A stretch of DNA of 64,000 nucleotides from a virus. Taxonomy: Duplodnaviria > Caudoviricetes. Positions 47,520 through 52,492 of the stretch are shown here, one piece after another. The position numbers were made by a program, and so were the translations under genes. The notes below the pieces were generated by a model. It was not told where the DNA came from and made no database searches. It saw nothing but the letters and a program-made list of their open reading frames with translations. The stretch is taken from positions 32,001-96,000 of the IMG/VR virus record IMGVR_UViG_3300013121_000037. One strand, 5' to 3'. The stretch's first letter is position 1. Every line of letters begins with the position of its first letter.

Positions 47520-48485
47520 TCAGGTGCGGATGGTTCGTGCCGCATCCTCGGTTTTCTTCGCGTTCTCCTCGCTGGCCCAGACAAACTTGCCAATGGTTTC
47601 CAGCGCCAGTTGTACCGTTTTCGTGTCCCAGTCCTTGACTGGACGTTTTTCGTTGCAACGGTCCTGGGCCAGCGTCGTGATAAGGCGAATCAGTTCTCCC
47701 GCCTTGGCCAGCGGCACAGGCCGATTCTTGGTCGGCGTGGCCAGATACTGGTCATACCAGGGCAAGAATTCCGCGAAGGTGGCTCCAGAATGGGGCCGCA
47801 GTGGCGAGCCTTCCTGGGTGATGGCAGTCTCCACCTCTCCATAGCGGTCGGCAGGAATTTCCAGCAACCGCTGCACGCCAAAGACGCGAGTCAGCGCTGC
47901 CATCGTTACCCCGTTGGCCAACATCAGTTTCCACAACTCCATCGCCTGATCCGCATTGATAACTTTGGGCGCTGGCGGTTCTGCTGCTGGACTGGGTTGG
48001 TGATTGCCAGTGTTACCACTCTGAGCGGGCAACGCCCATGCGGGCAGTTTCGGTGTGCTGGTAAACCGCTTCTTCTGCGGGTCATAGTCCACCCACTGGT
48101 GCGGCAAGCGGTACAGGTAGCGTCCCAGACCAAACTTGATGGCAACCCGTTTGAGTGAGTCGGAAAAAGCTGCCTTGAGCCGGTCCCCCTCGTCGGGTTG
48201 TTCGCTGGGGGAACCCACATCCTGCTTGGTGATCCAGACACCGTTAATGCAAATGGACAACCGGCAAACCACACTACCTTCCGGCAATGGTTTGTACCGA
48301 TCACACCACCCCTCCACACCCAGCACATCGTCCAGGCGGTCCTCTATCACGCGGGCGTCCACATACGCGACGGCCAAAGCCCGGTTGCCGTTGGTGGCCT
48401 GCGGTTTCCATTTGATCTCGCTGGGGTCAAATGGTGCCGCCAATGCTTCCTGAATCGCACGCGCCGACAATGGTTGCTCACTCAT
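47520..48485 (-). CDS. Rad52/Rad22-family single-strand annealing protein
   Basis: YVDARVIEDRLDDVLG, AFSDSLKRVAIKFGLGRYLY. Confidence 0.88.
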   Translation of the reverse strand: MSEQPLSARAIQEALAAPFDPSEIKWKPQATNGNRALAVAYVDARVIEDRLDDVLGVEGWCDRYKPLPEGSVVCRLSICINGVWITKQDVGSPSEQPDEGDRLKAAFSDSLKRVAIKFGLGRYLYRLPHQWVDYDPQKKRFTSTPKLPAWALPAQSGNTGNHQPSPAAEPPAPKVINADQAMELWKLMLANGVTMAALTRVFGVQRLLEIPADRYGEVETAITQEGSPLRPHSGATFAEFLPWYDQYLATPTKNRPVPLAKAGELIRLITTLAQDRCNEKRPVKDWDTKTVQLALETIGKFVWASEENAKKTEDAARTIRT

Positions 48486-49105
48486 GTGTACCTCACCCTG
48501 TTTAGCAAACCAGTCACTGCGCAAAAGTAGACTGTCGAGTTTTGCGCACCTGACCCTGTTCCAGTTGCAGACCGTGGAACAAACCGCGTTTGCAACATTC
48601 GTTCCAGACAGCGTCATAATCCGGGCGCACCCGTGGATTACGCTTCACTTCAATTGCCATCTCTTCCAGATGCTCGAATAGTTGCTCGTTATCGAGTATT
48701 TGCAAATCCATCACGAAAGGTCGGGAGGCACATCGCGGTCGTCCCATAATGGTTGTCCTTCCTGCTGTCTGGCAATTAACACTGCCAATCTCTGAATACT
48801 GCCCGGCAAGGCGCTGGTAGGTCCGCTACCTGACTGACCAGAAAGTTCCCAGGCCAGATCAGCACGGAGCAGCGCCGAGTCCGCGGCGCTCTGGCCACTG
48901 GCCCGCAAACGCAACGCAATTAAACACGCCTTGCACTTTTTCTCCCGGGACTGACGCGGCAACTCCGCGCCACAGCGGTCACAGTGCCGCCGTGGTGGTG
49001 GGATGGGTCGGCCATAACGGCAGCGCCGGCAGGTGCCGCCCGTCTTCTCCTGCACCCGCACCTGGCACTGCACACAGCGCGGTTGAGTTACCACGGTCTG
49101 CGTCA

Positions 49106-49459
49106 TCAGCGCTGCTCCAGTTCTGCTGCCACCGCATCCCGTAACTTTGGCACGGCCACCACCCGCTCGGCGTAATCCCAGAAGTCCAGAAAACATCGCA
49201 GGTCCGGGTGCTCATCCAGGTAGGCAGCGAACAACCGTTCGCCCTCGGCCACGGACCCCTCCAGACCACCGTTGAGGCAATAGGCCACCGGGCAGCAATG
49301 CGTGGCCAAGTGGCCCCAGTACGCCTTGAATGGCGGTGGTGATACTGTGGCACCCTGCAAAATGTGTTCGGAGTCGTTGTCCAGTTCACGCAGCAAACTC
49401 TGGAGCACTTGGGTGCTGGTCTGCTGCATCACCTGCTGCCAGGAGTTTTTCCAGGTCAT
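49106..49459 (-). CDS. Hypothetical protein
   Basis: Coupled ORF; ILQGATVSPPP, FLDFWD. Confidence 0.55.
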   Translation of the reverse strand: MTWKNSWQQVMQQTSTQVLQSLLRELDNDSEHILQGATVSPPPFKAYWGHLATHCCPVAYCLNGGLEGSVAEGERLFAAYLDEHPDLRCFLDFWDYAERVVAVPKLRDAVAAELEQR

Positions 49460-49629
49460 TGCTTGTCCCCCAGCAACTCCTGCCGCAGGATCACCACCTC
49501 GGGCGGCGCCGTGACACCCAACCGCACCTTGTCCCGGTAAATGTCCACCACCTTGATTTCCACCAACTTGCCATCGGATAACTGGATGACAATTCCCTCA
49601 CCACCCAGCTTGCGTGAAAGTACCAGCAT
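49456..49629 (-). CDS. csrA: Carbon storage regulator CsrA-family RNA-binding protein (57 aa, below the ORF-track cutoff)
   Basis: MLVLSRKLGEGIVI..IKVVDIYRDKVRLGVTAPPEVVILRQEL; RBS ggagg. Confidence 0.85.
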   Translation of the reverse strand: MLVLSRKLGGEGIVIQLSDGKLVEIKVVDIYRDKVRLGVTAPPEVVILRQELLGDKQ

Positions 49630-50427
49630 GTAAAAACCTCCCTGTATGGGCGACGAATTAACAATTCTGGCTCACCGGGACTTGCACCCAGCGATACACT
49701 GCCTGATCTGGTGAAATGACAAAAAGCCCAGACTGGCAGCACACCAGAGTTTTTTCACAATTCCCACAATTCCCCTGTGTGAAAGATGAGGCGGGAACTG
49801 GCTTCCCATTCAGCACCAACACCACGGCACCACAATGTAGTTCCCGCCTCATGCGCTCGCGTTGACTCAGGTCACCGGCTGCGGATTGGTCCGCAGTTCC
49901 CAGGAGATATTCGCCAGGTGCGTCTTGGTACCCGACAGGCAAATCATGATATTTTCCAACTCACGCCGAATGGTGCTGGCGTACTCGTAGGTAACGCTAT
50001 CCGCAGTCTTCACGCTGGTGATGGAGTGAAACGCCTGCAGGGCGGCACTGTTGATCTTCTCCACCTCGACGCGAATCCCCTCCAGGTCCGCGTGCAACCG
50101 GTCACCTCGTTCGTCCTTGCTCATGGCATGGTTTCCTCGCAGGAGTTTCCCACTCTGCACCATATGCTGGTCCCGCTTCAATCTGCCGACTGCTGCTGAC
50201 ACAGGACTTCGATCTCGGCCAGTGAATCGTCAACCGCCGTCCAGTTACGTTCACAGAGCGCCCAGCGGGCACGCTCCACCAGTTTCCTGATCTGGGTTAG
50301 TACCTCGGGGCGCACTGCGGAACCTGCCGCCAGTGGCGGTTGTTGCTCATTGGTCATGTTGGTTATCTCTTTTTCCCGGTACTGGGCAAAACTCGACTGT
50401 CTACTTTTGCGCAGTGGTAGAAAATAA

Positions 50428-50571
50428 ACCCTGCCCTGCCGTGCCCAGCCGCGCCCAACCCAGCGATGCCGAACCTCGCCCGACCTCGCCTTGCTACGCC
50501 CGCCCAGCTTTGCCGAGCCAGGCCTCACCCTGCCGAGCCAGGCCTCACCTAGCCCAACCCGACCGTGACAC
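50428..50571 (-). ncRNA. NN-GGY pentamer array B (2 units of 14 pentamers), candidate guide RNA
   Basis: Strict 5-nt periodicity (RCCNN on +) with one 4-nt phase break at 50498-50501; begins just after the stop of 50577..51098. Confidence 0.75.
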
Positions 50572-50576
50572 GCTAA

Positions 50577-51098
50577 TTAAGAACTCTTTTCTTCCAACTG
50601 ATCCACGCGACTGGACAGGTTATCCAGAATGCGAGTGATTCCCGCTTGCTGGCGTGACAATCGCCGGGTCACCTCATACAGTTGGTTGTTGATTGTGGTC
50701 TGTGCGACATGGATAACACGCTCCTGTTCTGTCATCTCGTCCAGGCGTGCATTCTCCATCGTTTCCAGCGCCCATTTCATCTGCCGGTTGCCGCGCCGAG
50801 TCCTACTGTCAGCCAGTTCGCTGTGCTCGTTGGCTCTGGCCATCTTGTACCCGACATTGCGGATGTTGCGCAGCACGCGCTTGTGCTCACGTAACAAGCG
50901 GTGATTGGCGAGGGCAACCGATTGCTGCACCTCACGCTTGCTGTAACAGTGGTCGGTATTCTTCGACAACGCCACTGACAACTCATCGTAGGTGAACACC
51001 GTTCCCGGCACCGCTTCCTTCACCAGATCAATCAGCACGGTCGTGTTGCTCTGACCAGTATCGCGACCGATTTTGAATGTTGTTGCCATAATCCACAT
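50577..51098 (-). CDS. Accessory protein between the two GGY arrays (possible winged HTH plus coiled coil)
   Basis: FTYDELS..RNIRNVGYK wHTH-like pattern; RBS aggaaagg. Confidence 0.65.
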   Translation of the reverse strand: MWIMATTFKIGRDTGQSNTTVLIDLVKEAVPGTVFTYDELSVALSKNTDHCYSKREVQQSVALANHRLLREHKRVLRNIRNVGYKMARANEHSELADSRTRRGNRQMKWALETMENARLDEMTEQERVIHVAQTTINNQLYEVTRRLSRQQAGITRILDNLSSRVDQLEEKSS

Positions 51099-51114
51099 CC
51101 TTTCCTGTTGAAAA

Positions 51115-51145
51115 CCAGTGAGTAGAGCGTTGCTCTACTCACTGG
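51115..51145 (-). terminator. Intrinsic terminator or processing hairpin at the 3' end of array A
   Basis: Perfect 14-bp stem ccagtgagtagagc/gctctactcactgg, followed by TTTT on the minus strand. Confidence 0.7.
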
Positions 51146-51160
51146 CGTCTAAACATGCAG

Positions 51161-51465
51161 ACTTTGCCTAGCCTTGCCCCGCCCTGCCTCGCCCGGCCGT
51201 GCAGCGCCGAACTCTGCCGTGCCCGGTCGTGCCTGCCCTGCCAAGTCCCGCCGTGCCCGACCTAGCACTGCCCCGCTTTACCCCGCCGAGCCTGCCTCGC
51301 CCTGCCTCGCCCTGCCGAACCCGGCCTTGCCTGCCCTGCCGCGCCACACCGGGGCTGGCCGGGCCTCGCCCGGCAGCGCCTATCCTGGCCCAGTCGTGCC
51401 TGCCCTGCTGCGCCGCGCCGCGCCTAGCATCGCCAAGCCCTGCCGAACCGGACCTAACTACGCCT
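51161..51465 (-). ncRNA. NN-GGY pentamer array A (5 units of 12, 13, 7, 11 and 14 pentamers, each opened by AGGC), candidate guide RNA
   Basis: 57 phased pentamers; 4-nt gcct phase breaks at 51231, 51290, 51329, 51398, 51462; overlaps the stop of the RAMP-like gene. Confidence 0.8.
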
Positions 51466-52147
51466 GCTGTTCCATTTGCTCAAAAAACTCTCTTACATCC
51501 GCGATGGAATTGCCGATGGTGGCGTCACTGTCTCTGGTCTTTCTGACGTGGCCACGGAAAGCACCGTAACCGTTGACGCGGTTGTCGCCGATCCTCTCGG
51601 TCTGTCCGGCCAATTCGACGATTTTCACCAGTTCATCGAAATCAAGTCCAGCGTCTGGGATGAATACCGCTGGAACCACCAATGCCCACGGAAAGAACTG
51701 CGGTCGAACACGCATCACCCGCTTGCCACGGATGCCAACTGACAGGCGCGAAGCAAATGCTGGATTGGCCATCAACCGCGCGATTTCGTCGTCCAGATTA
51801 TTCACCTTGTCGCTTCCGTCGTAGATGAGAGCAACGTCCTGCTTGGTCATCAACAACGCTCGCTCAACTTGCTTGCCGAGTTTGTTGATTTTGCCAGTGT
51901 TTATCAAGCACTTGCGAACCTTGCTGCACGGTTGGCTAACAACAATGCCATTGCCGTTGACAGATGCCGTGTAAATGCCACCCAACCACTCCAACCGTTC
52001 GATCTGCTTCAGGTCGTCATCGGTCTTCTTTTTCTTCGAGGTGAACAACTTGATCTGCCGATTCACCTCATATTCAGGGTCTACCATTCGCGGGTTGTGG
52101 CAGAGCAACGGTGACTTCCCCAACAAAACAAACTCGATGTTGACCAT
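51458..52147 (-). CDS. Stand-alone Cas7/RAMP-like protein (Vipr-like)
   Basis: N-terminal strand plus LLGKSPLLCHN; RVMRVRPQF..W; C-terminal Gly-rich loop AGQTERIGDNRVNGYGAF; 229 aa; RBS gagga. Confidence 0.7.
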   Translation of the reverse strand: MVNIEFVLLGKSPLLCHNPRMVDPEYEVNRQIKLFTSKKKKTDDDLKQIERLEWLGGIYTASVNGNGIVVSQPCSKVRKCLINTGKINKLGKQVERALLMTKQDVALIYDGSDKVNNLDDEIARLMANPAFASRLSVGIRGKRVMRVRPQFFPWALVVPAVFIPDAGLDFDELVKIVELAGQTERIGDNRVNGYGAFRGHVRKTRDSDATIGNSIADVREFFEQMEQQA

Positions 52148-52492
52148 GCTTAATTCCTCGTATTGTGTTGGTGGTTCACTGGTCAAAACTCGACTGTCTA
52201 CTTTTGCGCAGTGGGTAAAAAAAACGGCAGTGATGGGTGTGCAACAACAAGTCGCACGCTAACAGGTGGTGCAACGAACCTCAGAATCACCACCACTGCC
52301 GTTGTTCTCAACGTGGCCTGCTGTTGTGCCCCACATGCCACTGCTGGCAATGTGGACACTGGTAGCAGTGCATGTGCCGGATACCGTCACTGTTGCGGTT
52401 GATAAGTCCCAGCAAATGTCGCTGGGCGCTCGCCTGATTGGCATGGGCGATCTTGCCGGTGCGGGTACACTTCGGCAGGGTGCGCAGGGTCA

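What the first reader, a model, noticed from the sequence alone, without database searches (positions are those of the whole stretch)
50428..52147. Phage Cas7/RAMP-like gene with phased NN-GGY arrays: candidate non-CRISPR RNA-guided system (VIPR-like)
Seen (minus strand): a 229-aa gene (52147-51458) runs directly into array A, 57 pentamers with constant GGY and a variable dinucleotide. Array A is split into 5 units by a 4-nt AGGC phase break and closed by a 14-bp hairpin. A ~170-aa gene and array B (2 x 14 pentamers) follow. No cas1, cas3, cas6 or classical repeat-spacer array is in the window. Knowledge: an N-terminal strand with SPLL and a C-terminal GxG loop is typical of RAMP/Cas7 proteins, which polymerise along RNA with fixed periodicity. 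From memory, the layout matches recently reported VIPR systems (Vipr plus GGY/NN RNA); verify this. Inference: each subunit grips one GGY and displays NN, so each unit is a guide spelling a gapped DNA target, probably for interference with or repression of competing phages.
Basis: partly seen in the sequence, partly recalled or inferred. Interest (0 to 1): 0.96.

Follow-up and report, generated by a model that had tools for sequence, protein, structure and literature searches.

The report
Phage VIPR system with staggered guides
This 1.8-kb phage cassette is a genuine example of the VIPR system described in 2026 preprints: a small Cas7-like protein, a DNA-binding helper and seven guide RNAs written in five-base repeats. 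It is a good new member of a known kind, and the targets of its guides are still unknown.

Summary

- **Protein:** on the minus strand, a 229-aa gene (52147-51458) encodes a homologue of the solved SUSP1 Vipr protein (PDB 36pp, E 2.8e-13). Its model is confident (pLDDT 94.7) and matches Cas7/Csm3 folds.
- **Arrays:** the gene runs into a 301-nt array of NNGGY pentamers split into 5 units by one-base register slips. A conserved 14-bp terminator hairpin follows, then a 170-aa Vap1-family winged-helix gene and a second array of 2 units.
- **Relatives:** every one of 17 distinct related loci examined carries the same "staggered" arrays on the vipr strand. In the closest relative (Vipr 81% identical) the GGY scaffold is kept and the NN letters have turned over.
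- **Other checks:** no cas1, no Pfam RAMP match and no CRISPR array occur in the 112-kb virus record.
- **Literature:** VIPR and its staggered arrays are already described (bioRxiv 10.64898/2026.04.26.720920, fig. S18 legend).
- **Within this scan:** the kind has been noted before on other DNA (117 notes in at least 76 genomes).
- **Novelty:** a new member of a known kind.
- **Targets:** none was found for the seven guides. Expression could not be tested.

The parts
52189..52211 (-). Core of a 35-bp palindromic site about 40 nt upstream of the vipr start. It is a candidate promoter or operator and marks the upstream boundary of the cassette.
   Evidence: One of 17 matches to the 23-nt core in the window, against 0 expected. 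This copy and the one at 50392-50414 are the only two perfect copies. An 8-T run lies just upstream.
51458..52147 (-). vipr: a 229-aa stand-alone RAMP (Cas7-like) protein.
   Evidence: PDB 36pp_D 'SUSP1 Vipr protein', E 2.8e-13 over residues 6-198. phrog_4652, E 4.6e-30, the same PHROG as the Felixounavirus HY02 and LESphi2 vipr genes. Model pLDDT 94.7, with Foldseek hits to Csm3/Cas7. H17, K33, R148, D188 and R190 align with SUSP1 H17, K33, R138, D177 and R179 and are invariant or nearly so in 37 relatives.
51166..51466 (-). vrRNA array A: 5 staggered guide units. A1 51466-51402, A2 51402-51333, A3 51333-51294, A4 51294-51235, A5 51235-51166. The first two pentamers overlap the vipr stop codon.
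   Evidence: Register analysis and simulations. The same architecture occurs in relatives.
51111..51146 (-). Intrinsic-terminator-like hairpin plus U tract that closes the vipr-array A transcription unit.
   Evidence: Free energy -30.5 kcal/mol, z -4.8. It is conserved, with changes on both arms of the stem, in relative L021.
50577..51089 (-). vap: a 170-aa Vap1-family accessory protein with an N-terminal winged helix and a long C-terminal coiled coil.
   Evidence: phrog_5926, E 2.2e-11, the PHROG of the gene after vipr in HY02 (7e-76) and LESphi2 (4e-31). BLASTP to those two genes gives E 9e-6 and 8e-7. Model pLDDT 86.5, with OmpR/PhoB/ToxR-type DNA-binding domains as top fold hits (TM 0.5-0.56 on the target, E 0.015).
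50428..50566 (-). vrRNA array B: 2 staggered guide units. B1 50566-50502, B2 50502-50428. It ends in the clade's usual terminal AGGGT followed by a T-rich stretch.
   Evidence: B1 holds a perfect 20-nt internal duplication at 50511-50549.
50392..50414 (-). Second perfect copy of the palindromic site core. It marks the downstream boundary of the cassette and lies upstream of the next gene (ATG at 50357).

Best explanation
This is a VIPR (Viral Interference Programmable Repeat) system of the staggered-array kind, carried in the early/recombination region of a roughly 112-kb phage.

Shown here:
- the gene content (vipr, a Vap1-family gene and two arrays);
- the homology of both proteins to the type II VIPR proteins;
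- the RAMP fold of Vipr;
- the array grammar;
- co-occurrence of gene and arrays in relatives;
- turnover of the NN letters between close relatives.

Inferred from the published SUSP1 work:
- vipr and array A are transcribed as one RNA that ends at the hairpin terminator.
- vap and array B follow, by read-through or from a promoter of their own.
- One Vipr protomer binds each pentamer, holding GGY through H17, the thumb arginine R148 and the G-loop D188/R190, and displays the NN pair.
- The one-base slip at each CAGGC junction ends one filament and starts the next. This yields seven guides of 8-15 repeats, about 40-75 nt each.
- Each guide pairs with double-stranded DNA that reads NN-x-NN-x (one base skipped) and blocks transcription there. 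The winged-helix Vap1 homologue assists.
- The likely targets are rival phages, satellites or prophages of the same host. The host is possibly of the Planctomycetota; the closest genome-borne relative sits in a Gemmataceae MAG.
For: - Sequence homology to the solved SUSP1 Vipr, and shared PHROGs for both genes with the HY02 (Felixounavirus, the genus in which one search finds most phage Vipr homologues) and LESphi2 loci.
- Cas7/Csm3 fold from a high-confidence model.
- Residues the cryo-EM paper shows contacting GGY or the target backbone are conserved.
- The arrays lie far beyond chance and are unique in the genome.
- All 17 distinct related loci have arrays on the vipr strand. 59 of 83 units start CAGGC and 42 junctions show a one-base overlap.
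- Against the closest relative, GGY positions are 78% identical and NN positions 33%. Vipr is 81% and Vap 83% identical.
- No self-target rises above a shuffled-guide null, as the papers report for natural systems.
- No cas1, Pfam RAMP match or CRISPR array.
- The published description covers the two-gene locus, GGY/NN vrRNAs, staggered arrays with a 1-nt overlap and WH-like Vap proteins.
Against: - No RNA data: no sequencing run was listed, so transcription, processing and the ends of the guides are unverified.
- No target was found for any guide, although only exact core matches could be scanned at database scale.
- 16 of the 89 pentamers have a mutated GGY (82% conformity, against about 98-100% in L002 and L012-L014). 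Some units may bind Vipr poorly.
- SUSP1 W178, which stacks on the second G, is N189 here and throughout this clade, so GGY recognition may differ in detail.
- The 1-nt skip rule was established experimentally only for type II systems with tailed vrRNAs.
Confidence: 0.9

Rival explanations
1. A decaying or inactive VIPR remnant. The genes are intact, but the arrays are eroding and no longer guide anything useful.
For: Only 82% of the pentamers keep GGY, the low end among the relatives examined. No target was found for any guide. Guide B1 contains an internal 20-nt duplication.
Against: - Both ORFs are full length with all clade-invariant residues.
- Each mutated pentamer differs from GGY at one letter, and the register is kept throughout.
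- The source paper notes frequent internal degeneracy in working vrRNAs.
- The closest relative keeps the same layout, including the terminator.
- The failed target searches were exact-match only and so had low power.
Confidence: 0.07
2. The G-rich pentamer tracts are not guides. They would instead be low-complexity coding sequence or structural DNA (for example G-quadruplex-forming repeats) that merely neighbours a RAMP-like gene.
For: ORFs of 59-131 aa can be drawn across array A on both strands. The minus strand of the arrays is about 50% G.
Against: - A 5-nt period with -1 slips cannot preserve a reading frame.
- The NN letters are unconserved (33%) next to proteins that are 81-83% identical.
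- The arrays always lie on the vipr strand, in 17 of 17 distinct loci.
- In the homologous SUSP1 system such tracts are shown to be Vipr-bound RNAs.
Confidence: 0.02
3. A fragment of a conventional CRISPR-Cas system, i.e. a Cas7 of a minimal type III or type IV locus whose other parts lie outside the record.
For: The nearest solved folds, apart from Vipr itself, are Csm3, type VII Cas7 and Csf2. The record is only about 79% complete.
Against: - No Cas1 and no match to the Pfam RAMP family in the record.
- No repeat-spacer array.
- The sequence homology is to Vipr, not to any Cas family.
- The adjacent repeats are pentamers, not 25-40-nt CRISPR repeats.
Confidence: 0.01

Closest known systems
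VIPR systems with staggered vrRNA arrays (bioRxiv 10.64898/2026.04.26.720920, main text and fig. S18 legend)
   Same: Stand-alone Vipr RAMP, an accessory vap gene and GGY/NN pentamer arrays whose successive units overlap by one nucleotide, in a viral genome with no cas genes.
   Different: - The paper's representative loci and its type table were not readable here, so identity with a listed locus or type could not be checked.
- Here one array sits between vipr and vap and is closed by a terminator. Most relatives examined have the order array-vipr-vap-array.
Type II VIPR of Escherichia phage SUSP1 and of the Pseudomonas fulva prophage (the same preprint, plus 10.64898/2026.04.26.720927 and 10.64898/2026.10.15.759431)
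   Same: - Vipr is homologous: about 30% identity to the Felixounavirus Viprs, E 2.8e-13 to PDB 36pp.
- The accessory gene is in the same family (phrog_5926).
- The key RNA- and DNA-contact residues H17, K33, thumb Arg and G-loop Asp/Arg are conserved.
- The guides have about 8-15 repeats.
   Different: - Type II vrRNAs are separate units of about 12 repeats, each followed by a structured tail of about 60 nt (a pseudoknot in SUSP1); this is seen in HY02 and LESphi2. Here there is no tail between units, only a one-base slip.
- The G-loop Trp is replaced by Asn.
- The protein has about 27 extra C-terminal residues.
Cas7 backbone of class 1 CRISPR effectors (Csm3 of type III-A, Cas7 of type VII, Csf2 of type IV)
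   Same: RRM core, thumb hairpin and glycine-rich loop, as seen in the fold match. One protomer per fixed RNA step with periodic base flipping is established knowledge, restated.
   Different: No detectable sequence similarity, no other cas genes, a 5-nt rather than 6-nt step, and guides built from pentamer repeats instead of spacer plus repeat handle.

Membership tests
VIPR | Vipr protein: a minimal RAMP (RRM core, thumb, G-loop) homologous to the Vipr family | tested here: met
   PDB 36pp_D SUSP1 Vipr, E 2.8e-13. phrog_4652 is shared with the HY02 and LESphi2 vipr genes. Foldseek matches Csm3/Cas7 at probability 1.0 with a model of pLDDT 94.7.
VIPR | Tandem YNNGG / GGYNN repeats (at least 4 units) beside vipr on the same strand | tested here: met
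   Seven units of 8-15 pentamers. 0 of 2000 simulations reach the observed phasing.
VIPR | GGY conserved and NN hypervariable among related loci | tested here: met
   Against L021 (Vipr 81% identical), GGY positions are 78% identical and NN positions 33%. Guides differ in all 17 distinct related loci examined.
VIPR | Minimal locus with a vipr-accessory (vap) gene and no cas genes or CRISPR array | tested here: met
   Vap1-family gene. Cas1 and the Pfam RAMP family are absent and there is no CRISPR-like array. The record is only 79% complete.
VIPR | Residues shown to bind GGY or the target backbone in SUSP1 Vipr (H17, K33, R138, D177, W178, R179) | tested here: inconclusive
   Five of six are conserved, as H17, K33, R148, D188 and R190. 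W178 corresponds to N189, which is invariant in this clade.
VIPR | Arrays are transcribed, and the vrRNAs co-purify with Vipr | not testable with these tools
   No sequencing run was listed for the locus.
VIPR | Guides recognise DNA by the 1-nt skip rule, with natural targets in competing mobile elements | tested here: inconclusive
   No self-target, as expected for natural systems. No external target was found, but only exact core matches could be scanned, plus one guide with up to 3 mismatches in 252 Gemmataceae genomes.
VIPR, staggered-array architecture | Successive vrRNA units derive from positions that overlap by 1 nt, with no tail or ribozyme between them | tested here: met
   Slips of -1 at 51402, 51333, 51294, 51235 and 50502. 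42 such junctions occur across relatives. No Rfam family, hammerhead included, matches the locus.
VIPR type II (SUSP1 / P. fulva) | Each vrRNA ends in a conserved structured 3' tail | tested here: not met
   HY02 and LESphi2 show 12 repeats plus a tail of about 60 nt. Here the units abut directly. The Vap1 homology still argues for a close relationship. Placement on the authors' tree was not possible.
CRISPR-Cas (class 1) | Repeat-spacer array plus an adaptation or effector cas gene set | tested here: not met

The most novel reading that the evidence does not exclude
In this staggered, tail-less architecture the guides may not need a dedicated nuclease.

- The vipr mRNA would carry array A as its 3' UTR; the first repeat overlaps the stop codon.
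- Vipr filaments would nucleate on this RNA, and each 4-nt junction would simply break the filament register.
- The result would be either one RNA bearing five filaments that act multivalently, or filament-protected pieces released by host RNase trimming.
- Vipr binding next to its own stop codon could also feed back on its own synthesis.

Relatives that place a tRNA-like minihelix right after an array suggest that RNase P/Z-type host processing is used at array ends.
Probability: 0.15. Interest if true: 0.55.

Novelty: new member of a known kind. Interest (0 to 1): 0.3.

Why it matters
- It adds a well-delimited, compact (1.8 kb) staggered-array VIPR cassette from a large environmental phage. 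The phage is probably planctomycete-infecting.
- It shows that the staggered clade shares both Vipr and Vap1 families with the experimentally studied type II systems.
- It gives a close pair (this locus and L021) in which the guide letters have turned over completely around a conserved scaffold and terminator.
- This is useful for comparative work on guide biogenesis without tails, but it does not change what is known about the system.

Tried and rejected
- **Close relatives in viral contigs.** A scan with the single protein found none. Relatives came from the protein database and the GTDB genomes instead.
- **Targets within the data held.**
  - The seven guides against the phage's own 112 kb gave nothing above a shuffled-guide null.
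  - Guides of four relatives (L002, L004, L005, L006) against this genome gave nothing.
  - 78 guides against all fetched loci gave only chance-level hits of short guides.
- **Targets at database scale.**
  - Guide B1 with up to 3 mismatches in 252 Gemmataceae genomes gave 0.
  - Exact gapped cores of 20-22 specified bases of six guides in viral contigs gave 0.
  - Two guides in metagenome contigs gave 0, and two in genome contigs gave 0.
  - These were exact-match scans, so targets at 80-95% NN match would be missed.
- **Guides read as codons.** Reading each guide as codons gave degenerate peptides, but none could be searched usefully.
- **RNA evidence.** No RNA holder was listed.
- **Known RNA families.** Rfam and ARAGORN on the locus and four relatives gave no family and no tRNA.
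- **Protein families.** Pfam gave nothing for either protein.
- **Type assignment.** The paper's supplements are not held, so no assignment to types I-VII was possible.

Full report
**Observation**

Reading the minus strand shows the following order.
- A 229-aa ORF at 52147-51458, with a GAGGA ribosome-binding site.
- A G-rich tract at 51466-51166.
- A strong hairpin.
- A 170-aa ORF at 51089-50577. An alternative ATG at 51098 gives 173 aa, but relatives start at the position of 51089.
- A second G-rich tract at 50566-50428.

A position table of every GGY triplet shows that all 48 in tract A and all 25 in tract B sit on a 5-nt lattice. The lattice shifts by exactly -1 at 51402, 51333, 51294, 51235 and 50502.

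Parsed as NNGGY, array A has 5 units of 13, 14, 8, 12 and 14 pentamers. Array B has 2 units of 13 and 15. Each later unit of A begins CAGGC, and its C is also the Y of the previous unit.

Its "2 x 14" for array B is slightly off.

First-order Markov simulations with the arrays' own composition never approach the observed phasing (maximum 8 against 47 and 24; 0 of 2000). The detector finds no other run in the window or in the whole 112,344-bp record.

The hairpin at 51146-51114 plus UUUU folds at -30.5 kcal/mol with z -4.8.

**The proteins**

Pfam is silent for both proteins.

The 229-aa protein:
- It matches phrog_4652 (E 4.6e-30).
- In the PDB sequence search it matches chain 36pp_D, named "SUSP1 Vipr protein" (E 2.8e-13, residues 6-198 against 6-186).
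- An AlphaFold2 model built on 37 relatives is confident (pLDDT 94.7, pTM 0.89).
- Foldseek returns Csm3 of type III-A, Cas7 of type VII and Csf2 of type IV at probability 1.0 and TM 0.4-0.5.

The cryo-EM preprint names the SUSP1 residues that hold GGY and the target backbone: H17, K33, R138, D177, W178 and R179. In the HMMER alignment these fall on H17, K33, R148, D188, N189 and R190. All are invariant or nearly invariant in the clade alignment. Five of six are therefore kept, and the stacking Trp is an Asn throughout this clade.

The 170-aa protein:
- It matches phrog_5926 (E 2.2e-11).
- The genes that follow vipr in Felixounavirus HY02 and Pseudomonas phage LESphi2 are members of the same PHROG (7e-76 and 4e-31).
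- They align with it by BLASTP (E 9e-6 and 8e-7).
- Its model (pLDDT 86.5) has an N-terminal winged helix. This resembles OmpR/PhoB/ToxR DNA-binding domains (rmsd about 3 Å over about 75 residues; weak E of 0.015).
- Two long helices follow. This agrees with the preprint's description of WH-like Vap proteins.

**Relatives**

The Vipr has 619 homologues at E <= 0.001 in the large protein collection.

I examined 17 distinct loci (near-duplicate contigs not counted):
- four metagenome loci (L002, L004, L005, L006), plus L007, which shares part of L006;
- eleven loci from GTDB genomes, of which L011 is the same contig as L005; the closest is a Gemmataceae MAG at 61% identity;
- the closest relative of all, L021/L022 (Vipr 81% and Vap 83% identical).

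Every locus has NNGGY arrays on the vipr strand. Across them, 59 of 83 units start CAGGC and 42 junctions are one-base overlaps. Unit length runs from 5 to 15 pentamers with a mode of 10. Arrays commonly end in AGGGT followed by a T-rich stretch or a terminator.

The usual gene order is array-vipr-vap-array. This window, L002 and L021 instead have an array between vipr and vap.

Aligning this locus with L021 shows three things.
- The layout is the same.
- The terminator hairpin is conserved, with changes on both arms of the stem.
- GGY positions are 78% identical and NN positions 33%.

The scaffold is therefore conserved while the guide letters have turned over completely. This is the signature expected of guides.

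By contrast, the type II reference loci (HY02, LESphi2) carry single units of about 12 repeats, each followed by a tail of about 60 nt.

**What is known**

The recalled literature exists.
- bioRxiv 10.64898/2026.04.26.720920 defines VIPR as a Vipr RAMP plus vap plus vrRNAs of alternating GGY/NN. It demonstrates vrRNA expression, RNP formation, the 1-nt skip rule, transcriptional repression and inter-phage targets for type II systems. [quoted passage not shown]
- 10.64898/2026.04.26.720927 gives the structural mechanism.
- 10.64898/2026.10.15.759431 shows the biology in SUSP1.

This locus meets every sequence-level criterion. It is a member of that family with the staggered architecture.

It is not type II by array architecture, although both of its proteins share PHROG families with type II. 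The authors' type table was not available.

**Context**

The record is an IMG/VR virus contig of 112,344 bp, about 79% complete. The cassette lies among early or recombination genes on the minus strand, including a Rad52-family recombinase at 47520-48617 and a CsrA homologue at 49456-49629.

It is bracketed by the only two perfect copies of a palindromic site that recurs through the genome. No Cas1, no Pfam RAMP match and no CRISPR-like array is present.

**Mechanism**

By homology with SUSP1, the most likely mechanism is as follows.
- The vipr-array A transcript ends at the hairpin.
- Vipr protomers coat each pentamer.
- The one-base slips delimit seven guides.
- Each guide silences DNA that reads NN-x-NN.
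- Vap1 assists.

All steps after the sequence-level facts are inferred.

**Targets and expression**

- None of the seven guides matches the phage's own genome above a shuffled-guide null. This is what the papers report for natural systems.
- Guides of four relatives do not hit this genome.
- Exact gapped-core scans of viral, metagenome and genome collections found nothing. A scan of 252 Gemmataceae genomes with up to 3 mismatches also found nothing.
- No sequencing run could be listed.

Targets and expression remain open. The arrays are at the degenerate end of the clade (82% GGY), so partial decay cannot be excluded.

**Verdict**

Notes of this scan show the same kind in many other genomes. 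It is a new member of a known kind and of modest interest.

Noticed in passing
window 52189-52211 and 50392-50414, plus 15 further sites (e.g. 10919, 15468, 27884, 48517, 55178): A palindromic site of about 35 bp recurs 17 times in the window on both strands, against 0 expected. Each copy lies some 40 nt upstream of a gene start, often after a T run. The only two perfect copies of the 23-nt core bracket the VIPR cassette, so the cassette looks like one module bounded by these sites. The sites may be promoters or operators of a phage regulator.
   Followed up: partly
L002:4034-4076 and L010:54-97: In two relatives, the array upstream of vipr is followed at once by a tRNA-like minihelix: an acceptor-like stem plus a T-arm with the GGTTCGA-type loop. 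ARAGORN calls no tRNA and Rfam gives no hit. L010 folds as expected (z -1.8); the L002 fold is not better than shuffles. It may be an RNase P/Z processing handle for the last guide. It is absent from this window.
   Followed up: partly
window 50511-50549: Guide B1 contains a perfect 20-nt tandem duplication (four pentamers), so its NN code repeats with a 12-bp target period. This may be a recent duplication or a guide aimed at a repeated target.
   Followed up: no
window 51458-52147, residue 189: The G-loop reads GDNR in all 37 clade members, where SUSP1 Vipr has GDWR. The Trp that stacks on the second G of GGY is replaced by Asn. About 27 extra C-terminal residues form a helix in the longer subclade.
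   Followed up: partly
window 49456-49629: The phage encodes a CsrA-family RNA-binding regulator (Pfam E 1.9e-15) about 0.8 kb downstream of the cassette. The relative L004 also has CsrA, just upstream of its vipr, together with a DUF1580 gene.
   Followed up: no
L018:1147-1426 and L019:1408-1612: Two more distant relatives (42-50% identity) have very long in-phase runs of 56 and 41 pentamers without register slips. Their unit boundaries must therefore be set differently, or their arrays are not staggered.
   Followed up: no
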